A stretch of DNA of 64,000 bases from Longimicrobiales bacterium. Lineage in GTDB: Bacteria > Gemmatimonadota > Gemmatimonadetes > Longimicrobiales > Gaopeijiaceae. Where the stretch lies: positions 928,001-992,000 of the forward strand of contig OZ241892.1 in NCBI GenBank assembly GCA_965203485.1, written 5' to 3'. The notes beneath the pieces were generated by a model, which saw nothing but the letters and a program-made list of their open reading frames with translations, was not told the origin of the DNA and made no database searches. Below, one piece after another: positions 22,054 to 41,447 of the stretch. Each line of letters begins with the position of its first letter. Positions within the stretch are counted from its first letter, which is position 1. A program made the position numbers and the translations under genes.

Positions 22054-22246
22054 GCCGCCGCTCGCTCGCCGCCGCGCCGCCGCACCGCAACCGCGCCGCC
22101 GCGGGGGGACGGGACGTGGCGGCAGGACTCCGCGAGCGCCTGCGAGCTGGTTGACTTGGAGCGCCTGCCGGAGTACGCTTTGGCGGGCCGGGAACCGGCC
22201 GTAGCCGGGGCCGAGCCCCCCGGGCGCCTCCGCGGCACCTTCGAAC

Positions 22247-23272: not shown

Positions 23273-23403
23273 CCAGCAAATCGACGCGCCGGAAGGCCGC
23301 GCGGAGGTCGGATTCATGAACACGACGGTTTCTTGACCACCCGCCCGGAGGCGGGCCAGGACGCATTTCGTTGATGGGCAAGGACTTGCCTACCGCGAAG
23401 GCG

Positions 23404-23419
23404 TGGCGCCGATCTTGCA
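23404..23419 (+). promoter_or_regulatory. Sigma54 (-24/-12) promoter for lipoprotein A
   Basis: TGGCGCCGATCTTGCA fits TGGC-N7-TTGC; the same element lies before paralog B. Confidence 0.75.
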
Positions 23420-23552
23420 ACACACGCTCGCACACGCTATGCTTATTGCGTCGCGACGGCTTCGGCCCGAGCGTCGCGAAAGCCCAAACGGACATTGCTC
23501 CGGGAGGCGGTCGGCCCGGAGTTGCATCCCTCAAAAGCCAACGGGGAGAAGC

Positions 23553-26500
23553 ATGAACAGAGTGAAGCAGATGGCGGGGGCGCTGATGTTGCTGGTGCCG
23601 CTGGCGGCGTGCGACGAGGGCACGCCTCCTCCGCCGACGGGCTCGATCGAGGGCACGGTGTCGATCGAGGGCACGGGAGCGGACGGCGTGACGGTGACGT
23701 TGAGCAACGGCACGACGGCGACGACGGCCGGTGGCGGGGCGTACCGTTTCGCGGGCGTCGAGGGCGGGTCGTACACGGTGACGATCAGCGGGTATCCGTC
23801 GGACGCGAGCTTCGACGCGACGCAGGCGTCGGCGGTGATCGCGACGGCGAACCAGGTGGTTCGGCTGAACTTCACGGGTTCGTACATCCGGACGTCGAGC
23901 ATTTTGGGCGACGTGACGGTGGAGGGCGTGGGGCAGGCCGGGGTGACGGTGACGCTGTCGGGGATGTCGGACGGGACGACGCGGACGAGCGCGGAGGGGT
24001 CGTACGCGTTCACGGGTTTGCGGGCCGGGACGTACACGGTGGAGGTGTCGGGGTTCGACAGCGACGCGTACAGCTTTTCGAACACGAGCGAGAGCGCGAC
24101 GGTGGGCGTGGGCGCGTCGGCGGAGGTGGACTTCGCGGGCACGCACATCCGGACGGCGAGCATTCGCGGGACGGTGACGGTGGCCGGCGAGGGGCTCGAG
24201 GGCGTTCTGGTGAGCTTGAGCGGCGTGTCGGAGGCGACGAGGACGACGGACGGCGCGGGCTCGTACGAGTTCACGGGCTTGCAGGCGGGGTCGTACACGG
24301 TGGCGATCTCGGGGTTCGACGCGGAGCAGTACGGGTTCAGCGTGACGACGCGCAACGAGGACTTGAGCGTGGGCGAGAGGGCGAACCTGAACTTCGAGGG
24401 CACGGCGTTGCGGACGGCCAGCGTGACGGGCCGCCTGTTCATCGACGAGGTGACGAATAACAACGAGATGGACGAAGGCGAGGCCCCTCTCGAGGTCGCG
24501 GGCGTGAAGGTGGTGCTGGTTGGTCCTTTGGTGGGCGATGCCGACACGACGACGACGGACGCGAAGGGGACGTACGGGTTCGACTCGTTGGTCATGGGCA
24601 ACTACCGGGTGAGAATCGACCAAGCGGACACGACGGCGAAGTTGCCGGCGTATGTGGCCTACGGGGGCCCGGCGGACGGCTACCTGGTGAGCGTGGAGAC
24701 GGGGTCGAGCGCGAAGACGCAGGACTTCCCGTACGACATCACGAGGCAGACGGTGAAGGTGAAGGCGATGTTCGCGGCGGACACGACGGCGGCGGGGATG
24801 GGCGGTCCTGCGGCGGGCGTGACGATCGACCTGCACGCGACGTCCGGTGAGGCCCAGGCGGGCGACTCAGGCGCCCTGGGCCGGAAGAAGACGGACTCGA
24901 CGGGCTACGTGACGTTCATGTTCGACCGCGACGACGACAAGGGACCGGGCGGCGGGCTGGTGTACGCGCGGGCCACGGCGCCTGCGGGCACGGCGCTGGA
25001 AGGCGCCGTGACGATTCCGATCGAATACGAGCCGATGAACCACGAAGCGGCGGCGAGCTCGATGTTCATGGTGCTGAGCACGCGGGCGATTCTGGAGTTC
25101 TCGGTGGTGAACCGGAGCAACGACGGCGAGAGCGGCGGCGACCCGATGGCGGGTTGGACGGTGCACGTTTGGAACGACTCGGCGTCGGCTTCGCTGAAGG
25201 ACACTGCGACGGCGGCGCCGGACACCACGCTGGCGTCGGCGGCGAAGACGGGCAAGGTCGCGGTGACGTACAATGGGGTGGAGCGCGATCAGAAGTACTA
25301 CATCCGCCTGCCGGGCGGCACGCCCGAGGTGTCGGGCGAGAGCCAGGACACGTCGGTCACCAAGGGCGAGGAGTTCAAGCTGACGGTGATGGCGGGCGCC
25401 GGCGGCAAGGCGATGACGATGGCGCTCGACGCGGACAGCAAGACGGCCGCGACGCCGTTCCTGGTGTACGAGCACACCGGGCTGGCGCTTCCGGCGGCGA
25501 AGATGGACTTGGGGGAGGTCGCGGTGACGTTCACCACGCAGACGCTCGTCGTCGGAGTCCACCACGAGCGCGACGACATCGAGGGCTTCACCAACATCGA
25601 TCCCGGCGACACCCGGCCCAGCCGGGCCGACGACGGCGACGCGGACAACGACATCGACTCCGACATCGTGATCTCGCTGGCCGTGCCCGACAGCCTGCGC
25701 GGCTACCCCGTTCCGCTCAAGGACGAGAACGGCCAGGACATCGACTACGACAGGAATCCGAAGACCAACGTCTACGCCGACTACGGCCGCGACGACGGCT
25801 TGGTCCGGTACGAGGGACTGCCGTCGGACGTGAACCTCATCGTCGAGGCCGAGTTCTTGAACACCAAGATCGGCATCTCGCCCGAACGCCTCAACGTGTT
25901 CGGAAAGGACGTGGACACCGAGAAGACGGCGACCACGGGGGCCTTCGGCGGCGCGGGCGGCCTCATGCCGGTCGTCCAGTTCTGCCCGCAAAAGTTCGAG
26001 CCGGGCGCGCCGGAATCCCTGTGCTCCACGTTCGCCTACAAGTTCAAGAGCGGCGTCATCGACGTGTTGGCCCATTCGAAGACCTACACGGAGAGCGACA
26101 GCGTTCCCGCCGCAGGCATCGCGGTCAAGGTCCGGCGGATCAAGGGCTTGGGCGCCACGTCTCCGAAGCCGGACACCACGGGTGCGAGCGGCGCCGCCGA
26201 GTTCCTCAACTTGGTGGACGGCACGTACGTGGTGACGGCGACGCCGGACGAGGCCGGCAACTGGGACTTCGACTGGGGGCCGGACACGGTGGTCGTTCTC
26301 GGCGGCACGCACGCCGAAGTCACCAACCTCAACACGGCGAGCGACCCGTTGCATGTGGTTGCCACGTACCAGAAGACGAAGATTCAGGGCACGGTGGTGA
26401 ACGACTACGACGCGGATGGCGTCGCGGACGACGAAGAGACTCGGGCCGGCTTGGAGGTCTCCGCGCAACGCAAGAGCGGGACGAGGTACTCGACGGTCGC

Positions 26501-27173
26501 GACGACGGAGACCGACGCGGGCGGGGAATACGAGTTCAAAAGCCTTCCGGAGGGGACGTATCGCGTTGTGGGCGCGGAGGCGGACGGCTATCGCCTGTGC
26601 TCGAGGCATGCAACAGGCCCGGACGCCGCGGGCAAGTGCAGCACGTCCGGCACGTCCCCGGCCCTGGCGAGGTCGGTGGACGTCACGACGACGGCGGTGG
26701 CGGCGAACCGGACTTACGAGCGCGACGCGACGTTGCCGTATTGGGACCCTTGGGCCTACCAGGTCGCGAGCCAGGGCGACGACACGGACTTCGTGGTGCT
26801 GTTCAAGAACAGCCGCCTGACCGGGAACGCGATCTTCATCGACACCAACCCGACGCCTCACGACACGAGCTACGCAGGCCACGAGGTGCGCGCGTACCTG
26901 TGCAGCGCGTGGACGGGCGCTAACACCGTGGGCAACAGGTGCACTAGGTTCCCGAACAACGGCCGGCCGGACGAAACGACGACGACGGACTCGGAGGGGG
27001 ATTGGGAGATGACCGGGTTGCAGGAAGGCGTCTACCGCGTTTCGGTCGACGTTCCGCAGGGCTATACGTCGGTCCCCGCGACGCTCGAGACGTCAGAACC
27101 CGCCGACGGTCGCCCGGCGATGAGAGGCGACGGAGCCCGGACGCGGAACCTGAACTTCGTGGTGTCCAACTAG
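23553..27173 (+). CDS. Large surface lipoprotein A (1206 aa) with carboxypeptidase-regulatory/Cna-B/SdrD-B-like repeats
   Basis: SD ggggag; lipobox VPLAAC; ~87-aa repeats (I.G.V...G.G..GV.V.L..T...G.Y.F.GL..G.Y.V); DxxxNNxxDxGE and DYDADG Ca-loop-like motifs. Confidence 0.88.
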   Translation: MNRVKQMAGALMLLVPLAACDEGTPPPPTGSIEGTVSIEGTGADGVTVTLSNGTTATTAGGGAYRFAGVEGGSYTVTISGYPSDASFDATQASAVIATANQVVRLNFTGSYIRTSSILGDVTVEGVGQAGVTVTLSGMSDGTTRTSAEGSYAFTGLRAGTYTVEVSGFDSDAYSFSNTSESATVGVGASAEVDFAGTHIRTASIRGTVTVAGEGLEGVLVSLSGVSEATRTTDGAGSYEFTGLQAGSYTVAISGFDAEQYGFSVTTRNEDLSVGERANLNFEGTALRTASVTGRLFIDEVTNNNEMDEGEAPLEVAGVKVVLVGPLVGDADTTTTDAKGTYGFDSLVMGNYRVRIDQADTTAKLPAYVAYGGPADGYLVSVETGSSAKTQDFPYDITRQTVKVKAMFAADTTAAGMGGPAAGVTIDLHATSGEAQAGDSGALGRKKTDSTGYVTFMFDRDDDKGPGGGLVYARATAPAGTALEGAVTIPIEYEPMNHEAAASSMFMVLSTRAILEFSVVNRSNDGESGGDPMAGWTVHVWNDSASASLKDTATAAPDTTLASAAKTGKVAVTYNGVERDQKYYIRLPGGTPEVSGESQDTSVTKGEEFKLTVMAGAGGKAMTMALDADSKTAATPFLVYEHTGLALPAAKMDLGEVAVTFTTQTLVVGVHHERDDIEGFTNIDPGDTRPSRADDGDADNDIDSDIVISLAVPDSLRGYPVPLKDENGQDIDYDRNPKTNVYADYGRDDGLVRYEGLPSDVNLIVEAEFLNTKIGISPERLNVFGKDVDTEKTATTGAFGGAGGLMPVVQFCPQKFEPGAPESLCSTFAYKFKSGVIDVLAHSKTYTESDSVPAAGIAVKVRRIKGLGATSPKPDTTGASGAAEFLNLVDGTYVVTATPDEAGNWDFDWGPDTVVVLGGTHAEVTNLNTASDPLHVVATYQKTKIQGTVVNDYDADGVADDEETRAGLEVSAQRKSGTRYSTVATTETDAGGEYEFKSLPEGTYRVVGAEADGYRLCSRHATGPDAAGKCSTSGTSPALARSVDVTTTAVAANRTYERDATLPYWDPWAYQVASQGDDTDFVVLFKNSRLTGNAIFIDTNPTPHDTSYAGHEVRAYLCSAWTGANTVGNRCTRFPNNGRPDETTTTDSEGDWEMTGLQEGVYRVSVDVPQGYTSVPATLETSEPADGRPAMRGDGARTRNLNFVVSN

Positions 27174-27233: not shown

Positions 27234-27389
27234 AAGCTGGACCCCGGGGCGCCGCCGGGCCGGAGAGCGACTCGATTCGAGGAAAGGGACGAAAATTGCA
27301 ATGCACACGAGTCTTTCCGGCACTATGAAGAATCCGCGATTTGGCTTCGATCTTGTTTGCCAGAAACGATTTAGCGTTCTTGGCAGTTG

Positions 27390-27405
27390 TGGCGCCGATC
27401 TTGCT
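27390..27405 (+). promoter_or_regulatory. Sigma54 (-24/-12) promoter for lipoprotein B
   Basis: TGGCGCCGATCTTGCT; 15/16 identical to 23404-23419 within otherwise unlike upstream DNA. Confidence 0.75.
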
Positions 27406-27516
27406 GGAAATAGCGGGGCAGTACCGGAAAACCGGTTTCAACGAGTTGCTGGGGCCGATCGGGCGCACCGCCCGGCGGAACCCAGGCGACGAACCTCCAT
27501 TCCAACGGGGAGAAGC

Positions 27517-30500
27517 ATGAACAGAGTGAAGCAGATGGCGGGGGCGCTGATGTTGCTGGTGCCGCTGGCGGCGTGCGACGAGGGCACGCCTCCTCCGCCG
27601 ACGGGCTCGATCGAGGGCACGGTGTCGATCGAGGGCACGGGAGCGGACGGCGTGACGGTGACGTTGAGCAACGGCACGACGGCGACGACGGCCGGTGGCG
27701 GGGCGTACCGTTTCACGGGCGTCGAGGGCGGGTCGTACACGGTGACGATCAGCGGGTATCCGTCGGACGCGAGCTTCGACGCGACGCAGGCGTCGGCGGT
27801 GATCGCGACGGCGAACCAGGTGGTTCGGCTGAACTTCACGGGTTCGTACATCCGGACGTCGAGCATTTTGGGCGACGTGACGGTGGAGGGCGTGGGGCAG
27901 GCCGGGGTGACGGTGACGCTGTCGGGGATGTCGGACGGGACGACGCGGACGAGCGCGGAGGGGTCGTACGCGTTCACGGGTTTGCGGGCCGGGACGTACA
28001 CGGTGGAGGTGTCGGGGTTCGACAGCGACGCGTACAGCTTTTCGAACACGAGCGAGAGCGCGACGGTGGGCGTGGGCGCGTCGGCGGAGGTGGACTTCGC
28101 GGGCACGCACATCCGGACGGCGAGCATTCGCGGGACGGTGACGGTGGCCGGCGAGGGGCTCGAGGGCGTTCTGGTGAGCTTGAGCGGCGTGTCGGAGGCG
28201 ACGAGGACGACGGACGGCGCGGGCTCGTACGAGTTCACGGGCTTGCAGGCGGGGTCGTACACGGTGGCGATCTCGGGGTTCGACGCGGAGCAGTACGGGT
28301 TCAGCGTGACGACGCGCAACGAGGACTTGAGCGTGGGCGAGAGGGCGAACCTGAACTTCGAGGGCACGGCGTTGCGGACGGCGAGCGTGACGGGCCGCCT
28401 GTTCATCGACGAGGTGAATAGCAACAACAAGATGGATGTCGGCGAGGACCCTCTTGAGGTCGCGGGCGTGAAGGTGGTGCTGGTTGGTCCTTTGGTGGGC
28501 GATGCCGACACGACGACGACGGACGCGAAGGGGATGTACGGGTTCGACTCGTTGCTGATGGGCAGCTACCGCGTGTATGTCGACGTGGCGGCTACGGCGA
28601 AGGACACGACGGTTAAGTTGCCGGCGCATGTGGCTTACGGCGGCGAGAGCAGCTACACACACCGGCTGGCGTCGGGCACGAGTTCGGCGACGCAGGACTT
28701 CGCGTACGACATCACGAGGCAGACGGTGAAGGTGAAGGCGATGTTCGCGGCGGACACGACGGCGGCGGGGATGGGTGGTCCTGCGGCGGGCGTGACGATC
28801 GACCTGCACGCGACGTCCGGTGAGGCCCAGGCGGGCGACTCAGGCGCCCTGGGCCGGAAGAAGACGGACTCGACGGGCTACGTGACGTTCATGTTCGACC
28901 GCGACGACGACAAGGGACCGGGCGGCGGGCTGGTGTACGCGCGGGCCACGGCGCCTGCGGGCACGGCGCTGAAAGGCGCCGTGACGATTCCGATCGAATA
29001 CGAGCCGATGAACCACGAAGCGGCGGCGAGCTCGATGTTCATGGTGCTGAGCACGCGGGCGATTCTGGAGTTCTCGGTGGTGAACCGGAGCAACGACGGC
29101 GAGGGCGGCGGCGACCCGATGGTGGGTTGGACGGTGCACGTTTGGAACGACTCGACGTCGGCTTCGCTGAAGGACACTGCGAAGGCGGCGCCGTCGGACA
29201 CGCTGGCGTCGGCGGCGAAGACGGGCAAGGTCGCGGTGACGTACAATGGGGTGGATCGCGGCCAGAAGTACTACATCCGCCTGCCGGGCGGCACGCCCGA
29301 GGTGTCGGGCGAGAGCCAGGACACGTCGGTCACCAAGGGCGAGGAGTTCAAGCTGACGGTGATGGCGGGCGCCGGCGGCAAGGCGATGACGATGGCGCTC
29401 GACGCGGACAGCAAGACGGCCGCGACGCCGTTCCTGGTGTACGAGCACACCGGGCTGGCGCTTCCGACGGCGAAGATGGACTTGGGGGAGGTCGCGGTGA
29501 CGTTCACCACGCAGACCCTCGTCGTCGGCGTCCACCAGGAGCGCGACAACGTCCCGGGCTTCACCAACATCGCTCCGGGCGATGTCCGGCCCGTAGCCAA
29601 CGATACCCCCGCGGACATCGTGATCTCGCTGGCCGTGCCCGACAGCAGGGGCTACCCGACGGCGATCTTGGACGACGAGGGCCAGGAGATGAACTACGAC
29701 AGGATGCCGGGGGCCGGCACGGGCCTGGTGAGATATCCGAGTCTGGATTCGGAACTCAAGTTGATCGTCGAGGCCGACGCCAGTAATAACAAGAAAATCG
29801 TCACGCCCGACCGTCTCAATGTCTTCGGAGAAGATGTCGACACCGACGCGCACGGAACGACGGGGGCCTTCGGCGAGGCCGGCGGGCTCATGCCTGTCGT
29901 GCACTTCTGCCCGGAGACGACGACCGACGGACCGGCGTACAAGGACGATTGCTCCACGTTCGGCTACAAATTCACGGATGGCTCGATCAGCCGGACTATC
30001 ACTTCCGCCAGTTACGCGGGCGGTGACAGCGTGCCTGCTGCAGGGGTTATAGTTGCCGTCAAGGCGATCGACGGCATCGATGCCCGCTCTCCGAGACCGA
30101 AGAAAGCGAGTGCGGCCGGCGTAGCCTCCTTCGCGGATTTGGTGGACGGCACGTATGAGATTACGGTGATGCCGGACAGCACCGGCAACTGGGATTTCCC
30201 TTCAACGATGCGTCCAGACACATTGGTGCTTCTCGGCGGCTCAGCCGCTGGAGAGCGCTCCTACAGCAACAGCAACGCGAAGCGTATCATCGCCACGTAC
30301 CAGAAGACGAAGATTCAGGGCACGGTGGTGAACGACTACGACGCGGATGGCGTCGCGGACGACGAAGAGACTCGGGCTGGCTTGGCGGTCTCCGCGCAGC
30401 GCAAGAGCGGGACGAAGTACTCGACGGTCGCGACGACGATGACCGACACGGACGGGGAATACGAGTTCGAAAACCTTCCGGAAGGGACGTATCGCGTTGC

Positions 30501-31092
30501 GGGCGCCGAGGCAGACGGCTATCGCCTGTGCTCGAGGCATACAACAGGCACGAACGCCGCAGGCGTTTGCAGCACGTCCAGTAAACCGGCGCCATCGGTG
30601 GACGTCACGACGACGGCGGTGGCGGCGAACCGGACTTACGAGCGCGACGCGACGTTGCCGTATTGGGACCCTTGGGCCTACCAGGTCGCGAGCCAGGGCG
30701 ACGACACGGACTTCGTGGTGCTGTTCAAGAACAGCCGCCTGACCGGGAACGCGATCTTCATCGACACCAACCCGACGCCTCACGACACGAGCTACGCAGG
30801 CCACACGGTGCGCGCGTACCTGTGCAGCGCGTGGACGGGCGGTAACGCCATGGGCAACAGGTGCACTAGGTTCCCGAACAACGGCCGGCCGGACAAAACG
30901 ACGACGACGGACTCGGAGGGGGATTGGTCGATCACCGGGTTGCAGGAAGGCATCTACCGCGTTTCGGTCGACGTTCCGCAGGGCTACACGTCGGCCCCCG
31001 TGACGCTCGAGACGTCGGAACCCCCCAATCGTCCTGCGATGAGGGGCGACGGAGCCCGGACTCGGAACCTGAACTTCATCGTGTCCAACTAG
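27517..31092 (+). CDS. Large surface lipoprotein B (1191 aa), tandem paralog of A
   Basis: Same leader ccaacggggagaagcATG, lipobox and repeat architecture; first ~900 bp almost identical to A. Confidence 0.88.
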   Translation: MNRVKQMAGALMLLVPLAACDEGTPPPPTGSIEGTVSIEGTGADGVTVTLSNGTTATTAGGGAYRFTGVEGGSYTVTISGYPSDASFDATQASAVIATANQVVRLNFTGSYIRTSSILGDVTVEGVGQAGVTVTLSGMSDGTTRTSAEGSYAFTGLRAGTYTVEVSGFDSDAYSFSNTSESATVGVGASAEVDFAGTHIRTASIRGTVTVAGEGLEGVLVSLSGVSEATRTTDGAGSYEFTGLQAGSYTVAISGFDAEQYGFSVTTRNEDLSVGERANLNFEGTALRTASVTGRLFIDEVNSNNKMDVGEDPLEVAGVKVVLVGPLVGDADTTTTDAKGMYGFDSLLMGSYRVYVDVAATAKDTTVKLPAHVAYGGESSYTHRLASGTSSATQDFAYDITRQTVKVKAMFAADTTAAGMGGPAAGVTIDLHATSGEAQAGDSGALGRKKTDSTGYVTFMFDRDDDKGPGGGLVYARATAPAGTALKGAVTIPIEYEPMNHEAAASSMFMVLSTRAILEFSVVNRSNDGEGGGDPMVGWTVHVWNDSTSASLKDTAKAAPSDTLASAAKTGKVAVTYNGVDRGQKYYIRLPGGTPEVSGESQDTSVTKGEEFKLTVMAGAGGKAMTMALDADSKTAATPFLVYEHTGLALPTAKMDLGEVAVTFTTQTLVVGVHQERDNVPGFTNIAPGDVRPVANDTPADIVISLAVPDSRGYPTAILDDEGQEMNYDRMPGAGTGLVRYPSLDSELKLIVEADASNNKKIVTPDRLNVFGEDVDTDAHGTTGAFGEAGGLMPVVHFCPETTTDGPAYKDDCSTFGYKFTDGSISRTITSASYAGGDSVPAAGVIVAVKAIDGIDARSPRPKKASAAGVASFADLVDGTYEITVMPDSTGNWDFPSTMRPDTLVLLGGSAAGERSYSNSNAKRIIATYQKTKIQGTVVNDYDADGVADDEETRAGLAVSAQRKSGTKYSTVATTMTDTDGEYEFENLPEGTYRVAGAEADGYRLCSRHTTGTNAAGVCSTSSKPAPSVDVTTTAVAANRTYERDATLPYWDPWAYQVASQGDDTDFVVLFKNSRLTGNAIFIDTNPTPHDTSYAGHTVRAYLCSAWTGGNAMGNRCTRFPNNGRPDKTTTTDSEGDWSITGLQEGIYRVSVDVPQGYTSAPVTLETSEPPNRPAMRGDGARTRNLNFIVSN

Positions 31093-31111
31093 GCAGTTGA
31101 GGAAGGACGCC

Positions 31112-31207
31112 ACCGGCCCCTCGGCAGTTCGCCGAGGGGCCGGTCGGCGGAAGCAGGAAGGGCCTGTCCCCGCCCGGTCCGCCGGACGGGGACAGGCCCT
31201 CTTCTTT
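31112..31207 (+). terminator. Two consecutive hairpins; the second is an intrinsic terminator candidate
   Basis: accggcccctcggc-agttc-gccgaggggccggt, then agggcctgtccccg...cggggacaggccct followed by cttcttt. Confidence 0.7.
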
Positions 31208-31717
31208 GGGAATTCCGGCCCGGCCGATCAATCCAAGTCCGCACCGCCGCCGTAGCCGCCCACACGAGGAGCCGGCGGACTGCACCGGACCGCCCGCGCC
31301 ACGGTCTATCCCGTCCCACACGCCGAGCGGAGCGCCGTCCGTAGGAAGCCCTGCTGTGCCGCCGCCGGATCCGCGCCATACAGGTACAGCACCTTGGCGG
31401 AGCGCTCGCCGTCCGTGGGAAGCCCTGCTGTACCCAGGGTCCATCCCCGCCCAGGAAGCCCCAGCCGTCCCGTCAAAGCCCCCAGCGCGGGCCCCTCAGC
31501 TAAAGTTCCGTCTATTCCCGCCTACGGCTTGCTGGCCCCGTTGTCTTGTCCATTCCGCGTCCAGCGTGCTCGACCACCTTCTCGGTCGCAAGACAACCGC
31601 GCCGGACTTTCGAGCGAGACCGGAGGCCGATATACCGCTCAGCCGCACCGTCGCAGGCGCGCGATCCCAGACCAGCGCCGCGCGAGCGGCGTTTGGCCGG
31701 GAAGCCCAGGCGCCCGC

Positions 31718-31950
31718 TCAGCCGCAGTTGCGCAGGAGTTCCTCCCCGTTTCGCGAGACCCCGACGCGACCCGCGACCACGCGCAACCGCCTCGAGTCTG
31801 CCACTGGCTCGATTCGACGCGACCGGCAACGCGGCCACGCGCCTCGGAGGCTTGCCGCAGCTCCGCCGCGCCGCCGCGATCGCGCACAGATTCGCGTACA
31901 CCGCCATTCGATGTGCCATTTGCCGGTCGACGCCCGACCGGAGCTCCAGC
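31718..31950 (-). pseudogene. Internally deleted Rpn remnant (fifth copy)
   Basis: [30 protein letters not shown] joined out of frame to [24 protein letters not shown] stop; more diverged than the four full-length copies. Confidence 0.85.
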
Positions 31951-31955
31951 GCGCG

Positions 31956-32016
31956 CCGTCTCGTCTTGGTCGTCGCGCGGCCGACCAAGCGTCGCCTTAT
32001 TGGACGCGAGCGGCGG
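31956..32016. repeat. Left copy of a 61-bp direct repeat (degenerate purF 3' end plus downstream DNA)
   Basis: Ungapped match to 36540-36600: 25/25 identical block, 16-nt diverged block, then 18/20. Confidence 0.85.
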
Positions 32017-32092
32017 GCTGCCGTCCATGAGGGGCGCCGTGAGAACCGCGCGCCACGCGAGCAGCATTGGGCCGGGAGGCCCAGGCGTCCGC

Positions 32093-33055
32093 TCAGCCGC
32101 AGTTGCGCAGGAGTTCTTCCCCGTTTCGCGAGACCCCGACGCGGGCCGCGACCACGCGGAGCCGCCTCGAGTCCGCCACTGGCTCGATTCGACGCGCGAA
32201 CTCTCCCGCCACTTCGGCGCCGAACAGTCCTTCGACCACGCACCGCAACGCCTCCTTCAGCTCGGACACGGTCTGAGCCCGGCCTTGCTCCAAGCCCTGT
32301 TCCAAGCCCTGCTCCAAGCCCTGCTCCCGGCCCTCGGCCAGCCACTGCTCCGTCCAGCCCTTCATCGTCTCGTCGAGCATCGATTCGTCTTTCAGCAAGA
32401 TGGTCAGTTCCGCGGCCTTGACGCCGTGCTTGGCCAGCAACGCGCCGATCCAGCGCCGGAACGCGTCGCGCAACGGGTCGTGCCCGCCGTCCGGGAACGC
32501 GCGCGCCAGCGCCGCGAGCTCCGTCTTCAACGCGTCGGCTGTACGCGCCAGCGCCTGCGCCGGTTCACGACCAGCTGAAGCGTACTCCGGCTGGCGCGCC
32601 AGGTCAACCAGCTCGTAGGGAACCATGGGGTCCCGCCGCCATGTCCCGTCCCAGCGCGGCAACCCGGCCCTCGGGGCCGTCCAAGGCCGCGCGCCGTTGT
32701 AGACGACGACCGGCAACGCGGCCACGCGCCTCGGCGGCTTGCCCCAGCTCCGCCGCGCCGCCTCGATCGCGCACAGATTCGCGTACACCGCCATTCGATG
32801 CGCCATTTGCCGGTCGACGCCCGACTGGAACTCCAGGCACGCGAGCACGGTCGCCTGCGGGTCGCCCTTCACGCCGGCCCGCCAGATGCGGTCGGCGCGA
32901 CGCCTCAAGGCGGCGGATTCGGAGAACGAGTCGGGCGCCCGCTCGAGACGCGAGAGGTCCAGACCCGCCGCGTGCTTCGGCAGGAAGCACTCGAGCAGGC
33001 TGCGCACCATGCGCGGGCTCGTGAAGAGCTGCTTGAAGTGCTGGTCGTGGTCCAC
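32093..33055 (-). CDS. Rpn family recombination-promoting nuclease/putative transposase (YhgA-like), copy 4, 320 aa
   Basis: HD..FK.LF, ADRIW, LEFQS, MAHRM..Y, PVVVYNG.RPW, C-terminal EQG repeats. Confidence 0.9.
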   Translation of the reverse strand: MDHDQHFKQLFTSPRMVRSLLECFLPKHAAGLDLSRLERAPDSFSESAALRRRADRIWRAGVKGDPQATVLACLEFQSGVDRQMAHRMAVYANLCAIEAARRSWGKPPRRVAALPVVVYNGARPWTAPRAGLPRWDGTWRRDPMVPYELVDLARQPEYASAGREPAQALARTADALKTELAALARAFPDGGHDPLRDAFRRWIGALLAKHGVKAAELTILLKDESMLDETMKGWTEQWLAEGREQGLEQGLEQGLEQGRAQTVSELKEALRCVVEGLFGAEVAGEFARRIEPVADSRRLRVVAARVGVSRNGEELLRNCG

Positions 33056-33219
33056 GGCCGAACGATGGCGCGCGGGCCGGGACCGAGGAATGGGCGAACG
33101 GGACAGCCTCCCTCGCGGCGGCCGCGGAGCGCAATCGGCGGCACGGGGCCATCGCCCGCCACGCGCGCGAGGAAGCCGGCGACGACGCCAGCTGGACCTC
33201 CGGCGGCCGGCCGTACCGG

Positions 33220-34197
33220 TCAGCCGCAGTTGCGCAGGAGTTCCTCCCCGTTTCGCGAGGCCCCGACGCGGGCCGCGACGACGCGGAGCCGCCTCGAGTC
33301 CGCCACTGGCTCGATTCGACGCGCGAACTCTCCCGCCACTTCGGCGCCGAACAGTCCTTCGACCACGCACCGCAACGCCTCCTTCAGCTCGGACACGGTC
33401 TGCGCCCGGCCTCGTTCCAAGCCTTGCTCCAAGCCCTGTTCCAAGCCTTGCTCCCGGCCCTCGGCCAGCCACTGCTCCGTCCAGCCCTTCATCGTCTCGT
33501 CGAGCATCGATTCGTCTTTCAGCAAGATGGTCAGTTCCGCGGCCTTGACGCCGTGCTTGGCCAGCAACGCGCCGATCCAGCGCCGGAACGCGTCGCGCAA
33601 CGGGTCGTGCCCGCCGTCCGGGAACGCGCGCGCCAGCGCCGCGAGCTCCGTCTTCAACGCGTCGGCTGTACGCGCCCGCGCGAAGCGCGCCAGCGCCTGC
33701 GCCGGCTCACGACCAGCTGGAGCGTACTCCGGCTGGCGCGCCAGGTCAACCAGCTCGTAGGCAACCATGGGGTCCCGCCGCCATGTCCCGTCCCAGCGCG
33801 GCAACCCGGTCCTCGGGGCCGTCCAAGGCCGCGCGCCGTTGTAGACCACGACCGGCAACGCGGCCACGCGCCTCGGCGGCTTGCCCCAGCTCCGCCGCGC
33901 CGCCTCGATCGCGCACAGATTCGCGTACACCGCCATTCGATGCGCCATTTGCCGGTCGACGCCCGACTGGAACTCCAGGCACGCGAGCACGGTCGCCTGC
34001 GGGTCGCCCTTCACGCCGGCCCGCCAGATGCGGTCGGCGCGACGCCTCAAGGCGGCGGACTCGGAGAACGAGTCGGGCGCCCGCTCGAGACGCGAGAGGT
34101 CCAGACCCGCCGCGTGCTTCGGCAGGAAGCACTCGAGCAGGCTGCGCACCATGCGCGGGCTCGTGAAGAGCTGCTTGAAGTGTTGGTCGTGGTCCAC
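33220..34197 (-). CDS. Rpn family nuclease, copy 3, 325 aa
   Basis: Same motifs; complete central segment; 4 E-x-G-x units. Confidence 0.9.
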   Translation of the reverse strand: MDHDQHFKQLFTSPRMVRSLLECFLPKHAAGLDLSRLERAPDSFSESAALRRRADRIWRAGVKGDPQATVLACLEFQSGVDRQMAHRMAVYANLCAIEAARRSWGKPPRRVAALPVVVYNGARPWTAPRTGLPRWDGTWRRDPMVAYELVDLARQPEYAPAGREPAQALARFARARTADALKTELAALARAFPDGGHDPLRDAFRRWIGALLAKHGVKAAELTILLKDESMLDETMKGWTEQWLAEGREQGLEQGLEQGLERGRAQTVSELKEALRCVVEGLFGAEVAGEFARRIEPVADSRRLRVVAARVGASRNGEELLRNCG

Positions 34198-34359
34198 GGC
34201 CGAACGATGGCGCGCGGGCCGGGACCGAGGAATGGACGAACGGGACGGCCTCCGTCGCGGCGGCCGCGGAGCGCAATCGGCGGCACGGGGCCATCGCCCG
34301 CCACACGCGAGGAAGCCGGCGACGACGCCAGCTGGACCTCCGGCGGCCGGCCGTACCGC

Positions 34360-35372
34360 TCAGCCGCAGTTGCGCAGGAGTTCCTCCCCGTTTCGCGAGG
34401 CCCCGACGCGGGCCGCGACGACGCGGAGCCGCCTCGAGTCCGCCACTGGCTCGATTCGACGCGCGAACTCTCCCGCCACTTCGGCGCCGAACAGTCCTTC
34501 GACCACGCACCGCAACGCCTCCTTCAGCTCGGACACGGTCTGCACCCGGCCTTGCTCCAAGCCACGCTCCAAGCCTTGTTCGCGGCCCTGTTCCAAGCCC
34601 TGTTCCAAGCCCTGCTCCAAGCCCTGCTCCCGGCCCTCGGCCAGCCACTGCTCCGTCCAGCCCTTCATCGTCTCGTCGAGCATCGATTCGTCTTTCAGCA
34701 AGATGGTCAGTTCCGCGGCCTTGATGCCGTGCTTGGCCAGCAACGCGCCGATCCAGCGCCGGAACGCGTCGCGCAACGGGTCGTGTCCGCCGTCCGGGAA
34801 CGCGCGCGCCAGCGCCGCGAGCTCCGTCTCAACGCGTCGGCTGTACGCGCCCGCGCGAAGCGCGCCAGCGCCTGCGCCGACTCACGACCAGCTGGAGCGT
34901 ACTCCGGCTGGCGCGCCAGGTCAACCAGCTCGTAGGCAACCATGGGGTCCCGCCGCCATGTCCCGTCCCAGCGCGGCAACCCGGTCCTCGGGGCCGTCCA
35001 AGGCCGCGCGCCGTTGTAGACCACGACCGGCAACGCGGCCACGCGCCTCGGCGGCTTGCCCCAGCTCCGCCGCGCCGCCTCGATCGCGCACAGATTCGCG
35101 TACACCGCCATTCGATGCGCCATTTGCCGGTCGACGCCCGACTGGAACTCCAGGCACGCGAGCACGGTCGCCTGCGGGTCGCCCTTCACGCCGGCCCGCC
35201 AGATGCGGTCGGCGCGACGCCTCAAGGCGGCGGACTCGGAGAACGAGTCGGGCGCCCGCTCGAGACGCGAGAGGTCCAGACCCGCCGCGTGCTTCGGCAG
35301 GAAGCACTCGAGCAGGCTGCGCACCATGCGCGGGCTCGTGAAGAGCTGCTTGAAGTGTTGGTCGTGGTCCAC
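34360..35372 (-). pseudogene. Rpn family nuclease, copy 2, frameshifted by a 1-nt deletion near 34829; C-terminal frame intact
   Basis: ccgtctcaacg here versus ccgtcttcaacg in copies 3 and 4; 1013 nt versus 1014 expected; could be a sequencing error. Confidence 0.8.
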
Positions 35373-35536
35373 GGCCGAACGATGGCGCGCGGGCCGGGAC
35401 CGAGGAATGGACGAACGGGACAGCCTCCCTCGCGGCGGCCGCGGAGCGCAATCGGCGGCACGGGGCCATCGCCCGCCACGCGCGCGAGGAAGCCGGCGAC
35501 GACGCCAGCTGGACCTCCGGCGGCCGGCCGTACCGC

Positions 35537-36481
35537 TCAGCCGCAGTTGCGCAGGAGTTCCTCCCCGTTTCGCGAGGCCCCGACGCGGGCCGCGACGACG
35601 CGGAGCCGCCTCGAGTCCGCCACTGGCTCGATTCGACGCGCGAACTCTCCCGCCACTTCGGCGCCGAACAGTCCTTCGACCACGCACCGCAACGCCTCCT
35701 TCAGCTCGGACACGGTCTGCGCCCGGCCTCGTTCCAAGCCTTGCTCCAAGCCCTGTTCGCGGCCCTGTTCCAAGCCCTGTTCCAAGCCCTGTTCCCGGCC
35801 CTCGGCCAGCCACTGCTCCGTCCAGCCCTTCATCGTCTCGTCGAGCATCGATTCGTCTTTCAGCAAGATGGTCAGTTCCGCGGCCTTGACGCCGTGCTTG
35901 GCCAGCAACGCGCCGATCCAGCGCCGGAACGCGTCGCGCAACGGGTCGTGCCCGCCGTCCGGGAACGCGCGCGCCAGCGCCTGCGCCGGCTCACGACCAG
36001 CTGGAGCGTACTCCGGCTGGCGCGCCAGGTCAACCAGCTCGTAGGCAACCATGGGGTCCCGCCGCCATGTCCCGTCCCAGCGCGGCAACCCGGTCCTCGG
36101 GGCCGTCCAAGGCCGCGCGCCGTTGTAGACGACGACCGGCAACGCGGCCACGCGCCTCGGCGGCTTGCCCCAGCTCCGCCGCGCCGCCTCGATCGCGCAC
36201 AGATTCGCGTACACCGCCATTCGATGCGCCATTTGCCGGTCGACGCCCGACTGGAACTCCAGGCACGCGAGCACCGTCGCCTGCGGGTCGCCCTTCACGC
36301 CGGCCCGCCAAATGCGGTCGGCGCGACGCCTCAAGGCGGCGGACTCGGAGAACGAGTCGGGCGCCCGCTCGAGACGCGAGAGGTCCAGACCCGCCGCGTG
36401 CTTCGGCAGGAAGCACTCGAGCAGGCTGCGCACCATGCGCGGGCTCGTGAAGAGCTGCTTGAAGTGCTGGTCGTGGTCCAC
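35537..36481 (-). CDS. Rpn family nuclease, copy 1, 314 aa
   Basis: Same motifs; 19-aa in-frame central deletion; 6 E-x-G-x units. Confidence 0.9.
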
Positions 36482-36539
36482 GGCCGAACGATGGCGCGCG
36501 GGCCGGGACCGAGGAATGGACGAACGGGACAGCCTCCCA

Positions 36540-36600
36540 CCGTCTCGTCTTGGTCGTCGCGCGGTCGGCCGGACCCCGCTTCATTGGGCGCGAGCGGCGG
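36540..36600. repeat. Right copy of the 61-bp direct repeat, including the purF stop codon
   Basis: Matches 31956-32016 at offset 4584. Confidence 0.85.
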
Positions 36601-37987
36601 CCTCGCTGTCCGTCAATGGCGAAGCGTAGTCGCCGGAGAAGCACGCATCGCAGAAGGGCGCCCCTTCCGAGACGGCGGCGGTCATGCCTTCCAGCGACAG
36701 GTAGCCGAGGGAGTCCACGCCCAGTTCTTGGGCGGTGTCGGCCACCGAGAGGCGCGAGCCGATCAGTTCTTCGCGCGAGGGCATGTCTATGCCGTAGAAG
36801 CACGGAAAGCGCACGGGCGGGCTGGCGATGCGCAGGTGAACTTCGCGGGCGCCCGCGTGCTGAATGAACTTGACCAAGCTGCGCGAAGTGGTGCCGCGCA
36901 CGAGCGAGTCGTCGACAACGACCACTCGCTGGCCCTCCAAGACCTCCCGGACCGGATTGTACTTGACGCGCGCGCCGAAGTCGCGGTCGGCCTGGGAGGC
37001 GCGGATGAACGTGCGGCCCACGTAGTGGTTGCGCAACAGGCCGAGTTCGTAGCGGATGCCGCTGTGTTCGCTGAAGCCGAGACCGGCCGAGTTGGCGCTG
37101 TCCGGGACGCTGATCACGCAGTCGGCGTCCACGGGATGCTCTCGCGCAAGCTGTCGGCCGAACGCGCGCCGGGCGCGGTCCACGCCGATGCCCCAGATGC
37201 GCGAATCGGGACGCGCGAAGTAGACGAGTTCGAAGATGCAGGGCGCGGGCTTGCTCGTGTGCAGGCCGGGCAGGCTCTCGACCTCTTCGCCTCTCACGCG
37301 CACGAGCTCTCCGGCCGCCACGTCGCGCACGAGTTCCGCGCCCATGATGTCCAAGGCGCAGGTCTCGCTTGCAAAGACGTGCCCGCCTTGCAGCTTGCCC
37401 AGCACCAGGGGGCGAAAACCGCGTGGGTCGCGCACCGCGAACATGGTGTCGCCGACGGTGACGACCAGCGAGTAGGCGCCTTCGAGGAAGCTCAGGGCGT
37501 CGCGGATCTGGGAGTCGACGGCCGTGTGCCGGGAACGGGCGATCAGGTGGACGATCACTTCGGAGTCCGAGGAGCTCTGGAAGATCGCGCCCTCGGCCAC
37601 CAGTCGGCGCTTGAGGGCCCCCGCGTTCGTGAGGTTGCCGTTGTGCGCGATCGCGAGGTCGCCCTCCGCGTAGCGGACGAGGATCGGTTGCGCATTGGCG
37701 CGTTGGCCGTCGCCGGCGGTCGAGTACCGCACGTGTCCGATGGCCGTGCGGCCCTCGAGGGACGCGATGCGCTCGGCGCCGAAGACGTCCGACACTAGGC
37801 CGAGTTCCTTGTGGAGCCTCGCGTGCCCGTCACGGATCGCGCAAATCCCGGCCGCCTCCTGGCCCCGGTGCTGGAGCGCGTAGAGGCCGAGGAACGCCAG
37901 CTCGGAGGCGTTGTCCATGCCGCTGACGCCCACGATGCCGCATTCCTCGCGGGGGCGGTCGTCCATCACGCGGAACTCGGTCTTCAT
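36581..37987 (-). CDS. purF: Amidophosphoribosyltransferase
   Basis: REECGIVG propeptide/Cys, [35 protein letters not shown]. Confidence 0.97.
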
Positions 37988-40900
37988 GCCTTCGCTTCGC
38001 CTCGGTCCATGGCACGGGGGATGGCCTCGAAATACTCGCGAGCCAAGCGAGCGAGCGGCAAGCGGAGCGTCGAGGCGGGCGTCTCGATCCGAAGCAATCC
38101 GCCGCCGACCGAGCCGACGACGGCCGCCGGAACGCCGTGCGCGTGCGCGGTCTTCGCCACCTCCGGCAAGACGGCGGGCCGGCAGCTCGCGACGACGCGC
38201 CCGTGATCTTCGCCGAACAGCAGGGCCGCGCAGGGAAGGTCCGAAGACGGCAGGCGGACCGAGGCGCCGATGGGGTCGTCCGCGGCGCCGGGCCGCAGGC
38301 AGCTCTCGGCCAGCGTCGCGGCAAGGCCGCCCGTCGAGATGTCGTGGGCCGAGCTGAGGAGGCGCCGCCGGTTCATGGCGAGCACGGCCCGTTGCAGCGC
38401 CCGCTCGGCGGGCAGGTCCACGGCCGGAGGCTCGCCTTCGACCACGCCGTGCACGCGATGCAGATACTCGGAGCCGCCTAGTTCGCCCTTGGCGCCGCCG
38501 AGCAGCACGATCCGGTCGCCTTCGTTGCGGAAGAAGGAGCGCAGGACGGCGTCCAAGTCCTCGACCACGCCGACCATGCCCACCACGGGCGTCGGATGGA
38601 CCGGCCGGCCGTCCGTCTCGTTGTAGAACGATACGTTGCCCCCCGTGACCGGCGTCTCGAAGAACGCGCACGCGTCGCGAAGGCCGAGAACCGCCTCGCG
38701 GAACTGCCAGTACACTCCTGGCTTGAGGGGGTTGCCGAAGTTGAGGTTGTTGGTGATGGCCAAGGGGAGCGCGCCCGCGCAGGCCAAGTTGCGCGCCGCC
38801 TCCGCGACCGCTCCCATGGCGCCCGACCTGGGGTTGAGCCACGTGAAGCGTCCGTTGCAGTCCACCGTGGCCGCGACGCCCCGGTTCGTGCCCGGAATGC
38901 GCACGACGCCGGCGTCGCCCCCCGGCCGCTCGGCCGTCGCCGCCCTCACGGTGCTGTCGTACTGCTCGTAGACCCAGCGCTTCGAGGCCACGTTCGGCGA
39001 GGACAGCACGCTCCAGAAGGCGTCTTCGAGGCTCGAGCTCGGGGCGGCCGCGTAGCCGGACACGTCGGCCGTTCGGCGCGCCCGCGCTTCCGGCGCTTCC
39101 TTGCCTTCGCGTTCGTAGGCCGGGCATCCCTCCGTGAGCGGCCGCACGGGAACGTCGGCCACGACTCGGCCGCCTTCCACCACGCGAAACGTTCCGGAGC
39201 CCGTGACCCGTCCGACGACCGCGGCCTCGAGTTCCCATTTCTCGAGAACGGCGCGCACGGCGTCCTCCGAACCCGCGCGGGCGACCACGAGCATCCGCTC
39301 CTGCGATTCCGACAGCAGGATCTCGTACGGCGTCATCCCCGGCTCCCGGACCGGCACGGCCGACACGTCGATCTCCACGCCGTTGCCCGCCCGCCCGGCC
39401 ATCTCGGCGCCGCTCGACGTGAGGCCCGCTGCGCCCATGTCCTGGATGCCCACGATGTGGCCGCTGGCGATCAGCTCCAGCGACGCCTCCAGCAGGAGCT
39501 TCTCGGTGAAGGGGTCGCCCACCTGCACTTGCGGCCGGCTCGCCTCCTCCTGGTCCGCGGAGAGCTCCCCGGACGCGAACGTGGCGCCGTGGATGCCGTC
39601 TCGCCCGGTCCTCGCCCCCACGGCCATCAGCGTGTTGCCCACGCCCTCGGCCGTCCCGCGTATCAGGTCGTCGCGCTTCAGGAGGCCCAGGCACATGGCG
39701 TTGACGACCGGGTTGTCGGCGTAGCCCGAATCGAAGTGGACCTCGCCGCCGATGCAGGGGACGCCGACGCAGTTGCCGTAGTCGCCGATGCCCTTGACCA
39801 CGCCGGCGAACAAGTAGCGGGAGCGCGCCGAGTCCAGATCGCCGAAGCGCAACGAATTCAGGGTGGCCACCGGGCGGGCACCCATCGTGAAGATGTCGCG
39901 CAGGATGCCGCCGACGCCGGTCGCGGCGCCCTGGTACGGCTCCACAGCGGAGGGGTGGTTGTGCGATTCGATCTTGAAGGCCAGCGCGAAGCCGCCGCCC
40001 ACGTCGACGACGCCGGCGTTCTCGCCCGGTCCTTGAACGACCCAGGGCGCGCTCGTCGGCAGGAGGCGAAGCAGGCGCTTGGAGTTCTTGTAGCCGCAGT
40101 GCTCCGACCACATGGCCGAAAAGACGCCGAGCTCGGTGAAGGTCGGCTCCCGGCCCAGAATCCGCTTGACCTGCCGGTACTCGTCGGCGGGAAGGCCGTG
40201 CTCGGAGGCGAGTTCCGGCGTCACCTCGGGGTCGCCGGGGCGGGGCGCCGGTTCGGTTGCCGGGTCCGTGGCGCCGCCGCGAGCGGACGAAGCGGCTGGA
40301 GGGCCGGTTCCGGCCTCGGCCAGCGCGACGGCGGCCCTCGCGCGTCCGGGGTCGCGTGCGCGCGGGCCGTTGAGACGTTCGGTGGGCGCGGCATGTCGCC
40401 CGCCGTGCCGCCGTCCTCCGCGCTCGACCATCGAGGCGAAGAAGGGCAGGCCGTCCGTGGTGCCCAAGACGGTCTCGACGGCGCGGTCGGGGTGGGGCAT
40501 CATGCCGAGCACGTTGCCTCGTTCGTTGACGATGCCGGCGATCTGGTTCAGCGAGCCGTTGGGATTGCCGCGCTCGTCGGCCGATCCGGAGGCGTCGCAG
40601 TAGCGGAACACCACTCGGCCGCCGTCCTCGAGCGCCGCCAGGGTCTCGGCGTCCGCATAGTACGCGCCGTCGGCGTGGGCGAGGGGCATGCGGAGAACCG
40701 GACGGCGGCGCTCGGCTTCGGTCGCGGGGCCGCGGGCGGCGGAGGCACGGTCGCGTGGCTCGCGCGCGGCGTCGGCGCGAGTCTCCGCGTACGCCGACGT
40801 GAACGGCGTGTCGGTCCGCTCGACGCGCAGGTGGCAGTCGTGGGACTGGAAGCGGAGCGATCGGTTGCGCAGCAGGGCCCCCGGCAACAGGCCCGCTTCG

Positions 40901-41175
40901 CACAGCGCCTGGAAGCCGTTGCAGATGCCTGCGACTAGTCCGCCGCCGCGCGCGAACGCGGCCACGGCTTCCATTACTGGGCTGAAGCGCGCGATGGCGC
41001 CCGGCCGCAGATAGTCGCCGTGGGCGAATCCGCCCGGAACGATCACCACGTCGGCGTCCTCCAGCGACGTGTTTCGATGCCACACGAGCCGGGCCGTCCC
41101 GCCCGCCCGCTCCACCGCTCGGACGCAGTCCTGGTCGCAGTTGGAGCCGGGGAACGTGACGACGGCCGCCTTCAC
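37984..41175 (-). CDS. purL: FGAM synthase as one ORF: N-terminal PurQ glutaminase, linker, small-type PurL
   Basis: FPGSNCD, GICNGFQ, GMMPHP (PurQ) followed in frame by [28 protein letters not shown] (PurL); no stop between them. Confidence 0.92.
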
Positions 41176-41447
41176 CGGGCTTCCTTGGCAATCGCTCCGG
41201 CGGCGTCGCGAATCTCGAAGTTCTCGGTCACCGGATTGGCGAGCAGCTTGCGGCACATTGCGCGGACTTGATCGCGCGCGGCTGCGGCGGACGGCGCGCG
41301 CACGTCCAGAAAGATCGCCTTTCCGGAGCGGACTTCTTCGACGGCGTCGTAGCCGAGAGCCGCCAGCGCCTGCTGGATCGCCTTGCCCTGCGGGTCCAGG
41401 AGTCCAGCCCTGGGCGCGACGACGACTTCGAGTCTGTATCGATTCAA
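41172..41447 (-). CDS. purS: FGAM synthase subunit PurS
   Basis: [31 protein letters not shown] start. Confidence 0.93.

What the first reader, a model, noticed from the sequence alone, without database searches (positions are those of the whole stretch)
31718..36538. Tandem array of four near-identical Rpn nuclease genes plus a remnant, diversified by repeat-mediated indels
Seen: four head-to-tail copies whose N-terminal PD-(D/E)XK domains are almost invariant, with length variation confined to two zones (a central segment and a 12-bp repeat tract). SNPs are shared in a non-nested way: copies 1+4 versus 2+3 at gtagacgacg/gtagaccacg and aagtgctgg/aagtgttgg, but copies 1+3 share a terminal ERGR unit. 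Known: Rpn/YhgA proteins are nucleases, and enterobacterial members have been described as anti-phage toxins carrying an intragenic C-terminal antitoxin. Inference: this is an expanding and contracting defence locus in which unequal crossover reshuffles a constant nuclease onto variable tails. I do not know of such a near-identical tandem array being described, but cannot check that here.
Basis: partly seen in the sequence, partly recalled or inferred. Interest (0 to 1): 0.85.

Follow-up and report, generated by a model that had tools for sequence, protein, structure and literature searches.

The report
Tandem array of Rpn toxin-antitoxin genes
Four back-to-back, nearly identical copies of a DNA-cutting gene that probably carries its own antidote inside it are real, but such arrays are already described and common, so this is a good example rather than a new system.

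Summary
The array is real: four 97.8-98.9% identical rpn copies plus remnants sit behind purF. Contig depth in three runs of one sample, probably the source, fits four copies. All five RpnA catalytic residues are kept. Codon Met231 lies in the least structured window of the gene, while the full-length start is buried, as expected for an intragenic antitoxin, though its Shine-Dalgarno site is weak. It is not new. Zhong 2023 describes rpn tandem arrays and repeat-number specificity, and 12 of 75 related loci hold two or more rpn domains. One side result: outside this window, 0 of 22 co-resident near-identical pairs share tail length, versus 113 of 209 pairs on different contigs. That fits Koonin's idea of non-cross-reacting copies, but fast slippage is not excluded. 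The scan noted duplicated rpn genes before on other DNA, but no look-alike of this sequence.

The parts
36540..36603 (-). 3' end of purF plus about 42 bp downstream (block X); left boundary of the older duplication unit
   Evidence: Repeat family D12, 83% identical to 31956-32019; alignment; purF identity
36482..36538 (-). 57-bp upstream segment carried by all four copies; partly conserved in front of genus orthologues, so a probable weak promoter/start region
   Evidence: blastn and alignment; no Shine-Dalgarno; start window strongly folded, -21.8 kcal/mol; promoter role inferred
35537..36481 (-). rpn copy 1, 314 aa; 57-bp in-frame deletion between two 13-bp direct repeats (c3 codons 168-186); 6 repeat units (35794-35723); tail ATG at 35848
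   Evidence: model pLDDT 82.1, pTM 0.63
35428..35536 (-). about 103-bp spacer, present three times (also about 34255-34359 and 33111-33218), only between copies
   Evidence: no other long match in the genome or in six loci of relatives
34360..35372 (-). rpn copy 2, frameshifted by a 1-bp loss at about 34829 (221-aa truncated product); tail frame intact (ATG 34683, 107 aa, 7 repeat units at 34629-34546)
   Evidence: 3 of its 4 private coding changes outside the tract are non-synonymous
33220..34197 (-). rpn copy 3, 325 aa, the only copy with the ancestral central helix and an open frame; D4/D55/E75/Q77/R87; 4 repeat units (33453-33406); tail ATG (Met231) at 33507
   Evidence: model pLDDT 85.4, pTM 0.70
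32093..33055 (-). rpn copy 4, 320 aa; 15-bp in-frame deletion in the same central helix; 4 repeat units (about 32326-32279); tail ATG at 32380; most diverged copy
32020..32092 (-). downstream block Y, repeated in degenerate form (86% over 43 bp) after the remnant
31956..32045 (-). degenerate second copy of the purF 3' end block (X')
31718..31949 (-). rpn remnant: codons about 74-117 fused to the last 34 codons; two internal deletions; no start, lacks D4 and D55
   Evidence: tblastn 89% and 91% identity
31633..31657 (-). possible further relic of an rpn 3' end with the first bases of the spacer
   Evidence: repeat family D8; short local alignment; weak
22090..22212 (+). inverted relic of the same rpn subfamily (codons about 130-170) between comEC and fbp
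   Evidence: tblastn E 2e-7, blastn about 80% over 102-110 bp

Best explanation
This is a recent, lineage-specific tandem amplification of one Rpn toxin-antitoxin gene, now in birth-and-death turnover. SHOWN: an rpn gene absent from this interval in two congeners sits behind purF in four copies. An older duplication also copied the purF 3' end and has decayed to a remnant. The copies have exchanged sequence and changed the number of 12-bp repeats, and three of four have picked up lesions in one 57-bp stretch. INFERRED, from E. coli Rpn biology and sequence signals: each unit makes a little full-length PD-(D/E)XK DNase (GTG start, no Shine-Dalgarno, folded start) and more of a 95-107-aa tail from Met231 (very open start). 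The tail pairs with the full-length protein through the glycine-rich repeat helix and blocks it. Release of the nuclease under phage infection or stress would kill or stall the cell. Because neutralisation in E. coli needs matching repeat number, the 4-, 6- and 7-unit copies would be separate specificity classes. Copy 2 can now supply only antitoxin. Duplication is most likely RecA-type unequal exchange or conversion, and the indels come from slippage at short direct repeats.
For: PF04754 57-61 bits, cut-off 21. RpnA D11/D63/E82/Q84/R94 align to D4/D55/E75/Q77/R87 (residues shown essential in PMC5350276 passages). Nuclease core codons 1-125: 5 synonymous and 0 non-synonymous differences, P 0.001-0.005; outside the tract 10:7, P 0.006-0.04. 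Met231 window -4.8 kcal/mol vs median -15.7 for 932 internal ATGs, 0.2% as open. It lies in the most open stretch of the gene and is more open than all 23 unambiguous gene starts, whereas the full-length start (-21.8) is more folded than all 23. A rare AAA codon (3.3% of Lys codons) lies 4 codons upstream. Met231 is nearly invariant in alignment A2. Predicted complex of c3 with its own tail scores 0.69 against best control 0.02. That mark was reached by 116 of 157 solved and 2 of 215 mismatched pairs; runs agree in at least 97% of contacts and partner pLDDT is at least 86. Interface: repeat helix in register plus residues 3, 78, 172-181. It may pass by likeness to the solved RpnA-S dimer. Synteny; recA and mutS present; 13-bp repeat flanks the c1 deletion.
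Against: No expression, toxicity or phage data; no RNA holder was listed. The internal Shine-Dalgarno is weak (-4.9 kcal/mol; 35% of 1570 internal ATGs are as strong) and weaker than at all 62 motif-matched relatives' starts (-6.4 to -15.8). TIGR01784 cut-off is not reached (26-30 vs 52 bits) and the tail hits no Pfam family. No defence genes nearby. Three of four copies are damaged, and c3 and c4 share a repeat count. The genome holds many other tandem repeats, so amplification needs no special selection.
Confidence: 0.65

Rival explanations
1. Neutral amplification and decay: the array is a by-product of a duplication-prone genome. The copies are barely expressed, have no current defence role, and repeat counts drift by slippage alone.
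For: Many tandem repeats and paralog pairs genome-wide, including the adjacent SdrD-like pair (82% aa identity). Three of four copies are lesioned, with several relics. Buried full-length start. Housekeeping neighbourhood. Co-resident pairs at 88-93% identity match in tail length in 9 of 78 cases, so 0 of 22 at 97% or more has a chance of about 0.07 (my arithmetic).
Against: Synonymous bias in the nuclease core; intact catalytic set; strongly open internal start; all four tail frames are intact. The synonymous bias could predate duplication if alleles were imported by recombination.
Confidence: 0.2
2. Selfish, addiction-stabilised array or antitoxin dosage: extra copies persist because losing one unmasks a toxin of unique repeat length, or because detoxified copies supply extra antitoxin. 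Phage defence would be secondary.
For: Three different lesions fall within one 57-bp stretch between nuclease core and tail, all sparing the tail frame. The deleted helix 172-181 is part of the predicted tail contact. A sister-species orthologue lacks the same zone. Truncated tail-retaining copies flank intact genes in L046, L042 and L061. Co-resident near-identical copies differ in repeat count.
Against: Short direct repeats explain the c1 and c4 deletions without selection. By the E. coli rule the c1 and c2 tails would not neutralise c3. Arrays are patchy and often decayed, which does not look like strong addiction.
Confidence: 0.12
3. Assembly artefact: strain variants of a single gene stitched in tandem.
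For: No listed contig piece spans the array; X4 depths do not fit a constant multiplicity; the contigs carry the majority base at the c2 frameshift site.
Against: Depth over the unit is about 3-4 times the flanks and matches the expected k-mer multiplicity in three runs; the inter-copy spacer, which cannot exist with one copy, is present at about 2.3 times.
Confidence: 0.03

Closest known systems
Rpn (YhgA-like, PF04754) toxin-antitoxin genes RpnL/RpnS of E. coli (Zhong et al. 2023, PMC10400941; parts 1-4 of 5 read, supplement searched for three words)
   Same: PD-(D/E)XK core with the same five catalytic residues; probable internal start; hypervariable 4-residue repeats in a long tail helix; no transposon ends
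   Different: Only 19% identical to RpnA; tail 95-107 aa vs 49 aa; weak Shine-Dalgarno but very open internal start; not in a defence island; function untested
rpn tandem repeat array of Parabacteroides sp. Marseille (Zhong et al. 2023, Fig. S1B; legend read, figure not seen)
   Same: Head-to-tail direct duplications of an rpn region
   Different: Copy identity and repeat counts of that array are not given in the legend; here three copies carry lesions clustered in one helix
Stand-alone second antitoxin genes rpnCSs / rpnESs (ypaA) (Zhong et al. 2023)
   Same: Copy 2 and, in relatives, truncated copies keep only an intact tail frame
   Different: Here it arises by frameshift of a whole duplicate, and its repeat count (7) matches no intact copy
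Unnamed rpn arrays in other genomes (L034, L061, L066, L109)
   Same: 3-5 tandem copies at 94-100% identity that differ in repeat count, some broken
   Different: Different subfamilies (about 30-37% aa identity to this one where measured) and different neighbourhoods

Membership tests
Rpn / YhgA-like (PF04754) | Transposase_31 profile above curated cut-off | tested here: met
   57.3-60.6 bits vs 21 for all four N-domains
Rpn / YhgA-like (TIGR01784) | NCBIfam subfamily score above 52.1 bits | tested here: not met
   25.7-29.6 bits for c1, c3, c4; divergent subfamily
Rpn / YhgA-like | Catalytic D11, D63, E82, Q84, R94 | tested here: met
   D4, D55, E75, Q77, R87; no amino-acid change among copies in codons 1-125
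Rpn / YhgA-like | PD-(D/E)XK fold | tested here: inconclusive
   Best nuclease match NucS 2vld Z 6.9, rmsd 3.0, 102 aligned; 1y88 Z 6.4, rmsd 3.5, 110 aligned; all below Z 8; Foldseek nothing at E<=0.001
RpnL/RpnS toxin-antitoxin | Variable 4-residue repeats 8-20 residues after the internal Met, in a long helix | tested here: met
   Tract starts 18 codons after Met231; 4-7 units; helix 229-283 in the model
RpnL/RpnS toxin-antitoxin | Internal start with ribosome-binding site | tested here: inconclusive
   Conserved Met and exceptionally open structure, but Shine-Dalgarno -4.9, weaker than at all 62 relatives' starts measured
RpnL/RpnS toxin-antitoxin | Tail binds the full-length protein | tested here: inconclusive
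   Prediction 0.69 vs best control 0.02 (mark reached by 116 of 157 solved, 2 of 215 mismatched pairs); a model only, possibly by likeness to the solved RpnA-S dimer
RpnL/RpnS toxin-antitoxin | Toxicity, DNase activity, neutralisation, phage protection | not testable with these tools
   needs bench work
Defence island | Clustering with other defence genes | tested here: not met
   11 of 12 neighbouring proteins gave no PADLOC hit; ComEC hit only through its metallo-beta-lactamase domain
Insertion sequence or att-site cassette array | Terminal inverted repeats, target duplication, or a repeated recombination site between units | tested here: not met
   No terminal inverted repeats among the 25 longest of 72 pairs listed; the purF 3' block recurs once, degenerate, not between each unit; no recombinase family among the neighbours scanned

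The most novel reading that the evidence does not exclude
Repeat number works as an address code under selection. After an rpn gene duplicates, copies persist only if they change their 4-residue repeat count, or alter the second antitoxin-contact helix as c4 and c1 did, so that each toxin answers to its own antitoxin. Arrays like this would be caught-in-the-act generators of non-cross-reacting toxin-antitoxin pairs on an identical nuclease. The 0 of 22 versus 113 of 209 contrast would be genomic evidence for Koonin's 2023 suggestion; I found no such count in print.
Probability: 0.3. Interest if true: 0.55.

Novelty: new member of a known kind. Interest (0 to 1): 0.3.

Why it matters
As a locus it is ordinary. 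Its value is as a natural test set: four copies with a near-identical nuclease and 4, 4, 6 and 7 repeats, two differing in a predicted second contact helix. That makes the open question of why Rpn repeats vary (Zhong 2023; Koonin 2023) directly testable by a small cross-neutralisation matrix. It also suggests that an intragenic antitoxin start can be kept by open RNA structure after the Shine-Dalgarno site weakens.

Tried and rejected
Misassembly: rejected by depth versus k-mer multiplicity. Copy-2 frameshift as sequencing error: not settled. The contigs show the majority base, but contigs drop minority variants; five neighbouring genes align to congeners in a single frame over the stretches held, and c2's private changes lean non-synonymous. 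Att-site cassette array on the purF 3' end (lead from earlier notes): only one degenerate extra copy, rejected. Structured RNA, sigma-70 promoter or terminator in the array: none found (Rfam only a chance hit; 0 sites). Loss of mismatch repair as the cause: mutS is present. Sequence search of solved structures: nothing useful. PADLOC on the Rpn proteins: only a weak repeat-driven hit. No RNA holder listed, which says nothing on expression. A literature search pairing a guessed host habitat with Rpn gave 0 papers; habitat and taxon were not determined. The first protein search suggested a genus-only expansion (0 of 58 other genomes); the profile search corrected this (13 of 151 genomes, 4 of 81 genera). 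The Fisher P of 1.8e-7 is not used, because pairs are not independent and gene conversion can make paralogs look younger than their tracts. The c4 tract line was mis-anchored by my script; its 4 units are read and the equal 95-aa tail.
Full report
Observation. The stretch holds four head-to-tail units on the minus strand directly behind purF. In transcription order: c1 36481-35537, c2 35372-34360, c3 34197-33220, c4 33055-32093, then a remnant at 31949-31718. Units are 97.8-98.9% identical with 34 substitution columns. Three incompatible partitions among four sequences point to exchange between copies, though each rests on one or two sites and the tract sites could recur by slippage. Repeat counts are 6, 7, 4, 4.

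Is it real? The window lies in a single 3.56-Mb contig. Four public runs from two samples of one study hold the stretch as contigs. Using per-contig depth divided by the 31-mer multiplicity that the four-copy assembly predicts, sample S1 gives near-constant values: X3 595-600 against flanks 539-600, X1 117-120 against 94-129, X2 35-36 against 27-43. S1 is probably the source, so this tests the assembly, not replication. X4 shows raised depth but ratios of 141-454 against flanks of 86-185, which may be a strain mixture. No piece spans the array, and contigs cannot show read-level variation or settle the c2 base.

Family. All four N-domains pass PF04754 (57-61 bits, cut-off 21) but the three tested miss TIGR01784 (26-30 vs 52). 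E. coli RpnA D11, D63, E82, Q84 and R94, shown essential in PMC5350276 (passages), align to D4, D55, E75, Q77 and R87. The c3 model is confident (pLDDT 85.4, pTM 0.70); fold matches to nucleases are only middling (NucS Z 6.9, rmsd 3.0, 102 aligned; nothing by Foldseek). Differences among copies are synonymous-biased: 5:0 in codons 1-125 and 10:7 outside the tract (P 0.001-0.005 and 0.006-0.04 for synonymous fractions of 0.27-0.35).

Intragenic antitoxin. Met231 is nearly invariant in the family alignment and the tract begins 18 codons later. Against it: the Shine-Dalgarno pairing is -4.9 kcal/mol, matched by 35% of 1570 internal ATGs, and weaker than all 60 motif-matched starts and 2 more (-6.4 to -15.8). 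For it: the 50-nt window folds at -4.8 against a median of -15.7 for 932 internal ATGs (0.2% as open). It is in the most open stretch of the gene and more open than all 23 unambiguous gene starts, while the full-length GTG start has no Shine-Dalgarno and folds at -21.8. 39% of those 23 starts have weaker pairing than Met231. A predicted complex of c3 with residues 231-325 scored 0.69 against a best control of 0.02 (mark reached by 116 of 157 solved and 2 of 215 mismatched pairs; runs agree in at least 97% of contacts; partner pLDDT at least 86). The interface is the repeat helix in register plus residues 3, 78 and 172-181. The pass may reflect likeness to the solved RpnA-S dimer and shows no binding.

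History. Both other genomes of the genus have one SdrD-like gene and no rpn between purF and fbp, so the array and the second surface gene are gains in this lineage, or were lost twice. A degenerate copy of the purF 3' end precedes the remnant and a degenerate copy of the c4 downstream block follows it, so an older unit was duplicated and then eroded. A further inverted relic lies at 22090-22212. The 103-bp spacer occurs only between copies and has no other long match in the genome; its origin is unexplained. Orthologues show that the long central helix is ancestral, so c1 and c4 are deletions; their Y119-to-Met distances (93, 107; c3 112) fall below all 36 homologues that my pattern could measure (113-148). 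All three lesions lie in one 57-bp stretch. A 13-bp direct repeat, the only one of 10 bp or more within 130 bp outside the tract, explains c1's. recA and mutS are present, and the genome has many tandem repeats. Neighbours are housekeeping or surface genes with no defence signal.

What is known. Zhong et al. 2023 (PMC10400941; parts 1-4 of 5 read; supplement text searched; figures and datasets not seen) state that rpn arrays arise by tandem direct duplication, show one in Fig. S1B, and show that a one-repeat mismatch abolishes neutralisation. Koonin's commentary (PMC10400984, whole text) notes that repeat variation would prevent inhibition in trans among multiple copies. Arrays are common: 12 of 75 loci hold two or more Rpn N-domains. 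Of the 10 of these 12 that I aligned, 9 have copies at least 93% identical. PF04754 occurs in 13 of 151 genomes of the family, often in many copies, with tandem sets in G080 and G125.

Side test. From 164 loci in ten related genomes I extracted 150 genes and kept 123 as intact, dropping one more with an internal deletion; the 10 weakest G125 hits had no locus. Among co-resident pairs of at least 97% amino-acid identity, 0 of 22 share tail length (15 in the family, 7 in arrays of other taxa; truncated or broken copies left out). At 93-97% it is 3 of 60, and at 88-93% 9 of 82. Among members of nine 90% clusters on different contigs (lengths 300-430 aa, one frameshifted member dropped) 113 of 209 share it, and 0 of 4 same-contig pairs do. 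In this window 1 of 3 intact pairs (c3/c4) shares it. The contrast is large, but pairs are not independent, several control clusters have short tracts, conversion can make paralogs look young, and complete randomisation at about 11% matching would give 0 of 22 about 7% of the time. It is a lead, not a result. Five paper searches listed no study that counts this; unseen datasets of Zhong et al. could bear on it.

Verdict. A real, recent, partly decaying tandem array of a divergent Rpn gene that most likely works as an RpnL/RpnS toxin-antitoxin module (0.65). Anti-phage function is inferred from E. coli only. New member of a known kind; interest 0.3.

Noticed in passing
window 23403-27173 and 27301-31092 (+): Tandem pair of large SdrD_B / carboxypeptidase-regulatory-domain surface protein genes, 82% identical as proteins; congeners have one copy, and in G002 it carries extra internal repeats.
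   Followed up: partly
G000:C1:2327277-2333030: About six tandem units of about 926 bp at 91-95% identity with long G/C homopolymer runs, between two genes that look HPr-kinase-like (label recalled, not scanned); possibly a peptide-precursor array.
   Followed up: no
G000:C1:711672-749230: 14.4-kb near-tandem duplication at 99.8% identity, 23 kb apart; the genome also has about ten dispersed giant repeat-protein loci sharing 7-18 kb blocks.
   Followed up: no
G000:C1:2780508-2790324: About nine 1053-bp units at 95-99% identity, apparently within one giant repeat gene.
   Followed up: no
G001, G080, G125, G151, G172: Large dispersed rpn families (11-40 profile matches per genome) at 90-99% identity, often hundreds of kb to megabases apart, implying recent intragenomic spread by something other than tandem duplication, although Rpn is argued not to be a transposase.
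   Followed up: partly
G080:C1:2825459-2828711: One full-length rpn match followed by three tandem matches that lack the first 80 profile positions, resembling a row of stand-alone antitoxin donors.
   Followed up: no
L056:6647-9273: Tandem unit made of an rpn gene plus a separate tail-only match, duplicated twice.
   Followed up: no
window 37984-41256 (-): purQ- and purL-type domains lie in one open frame, and in stop-to-stop terms that frame is unusually long.
   Followed up: no
window 31109-31200 and 31333-31451: Two strong GC hairpins after the second surface gene and a 45-bp direct repeat pair in the intergenic gap.
   Followed up: no
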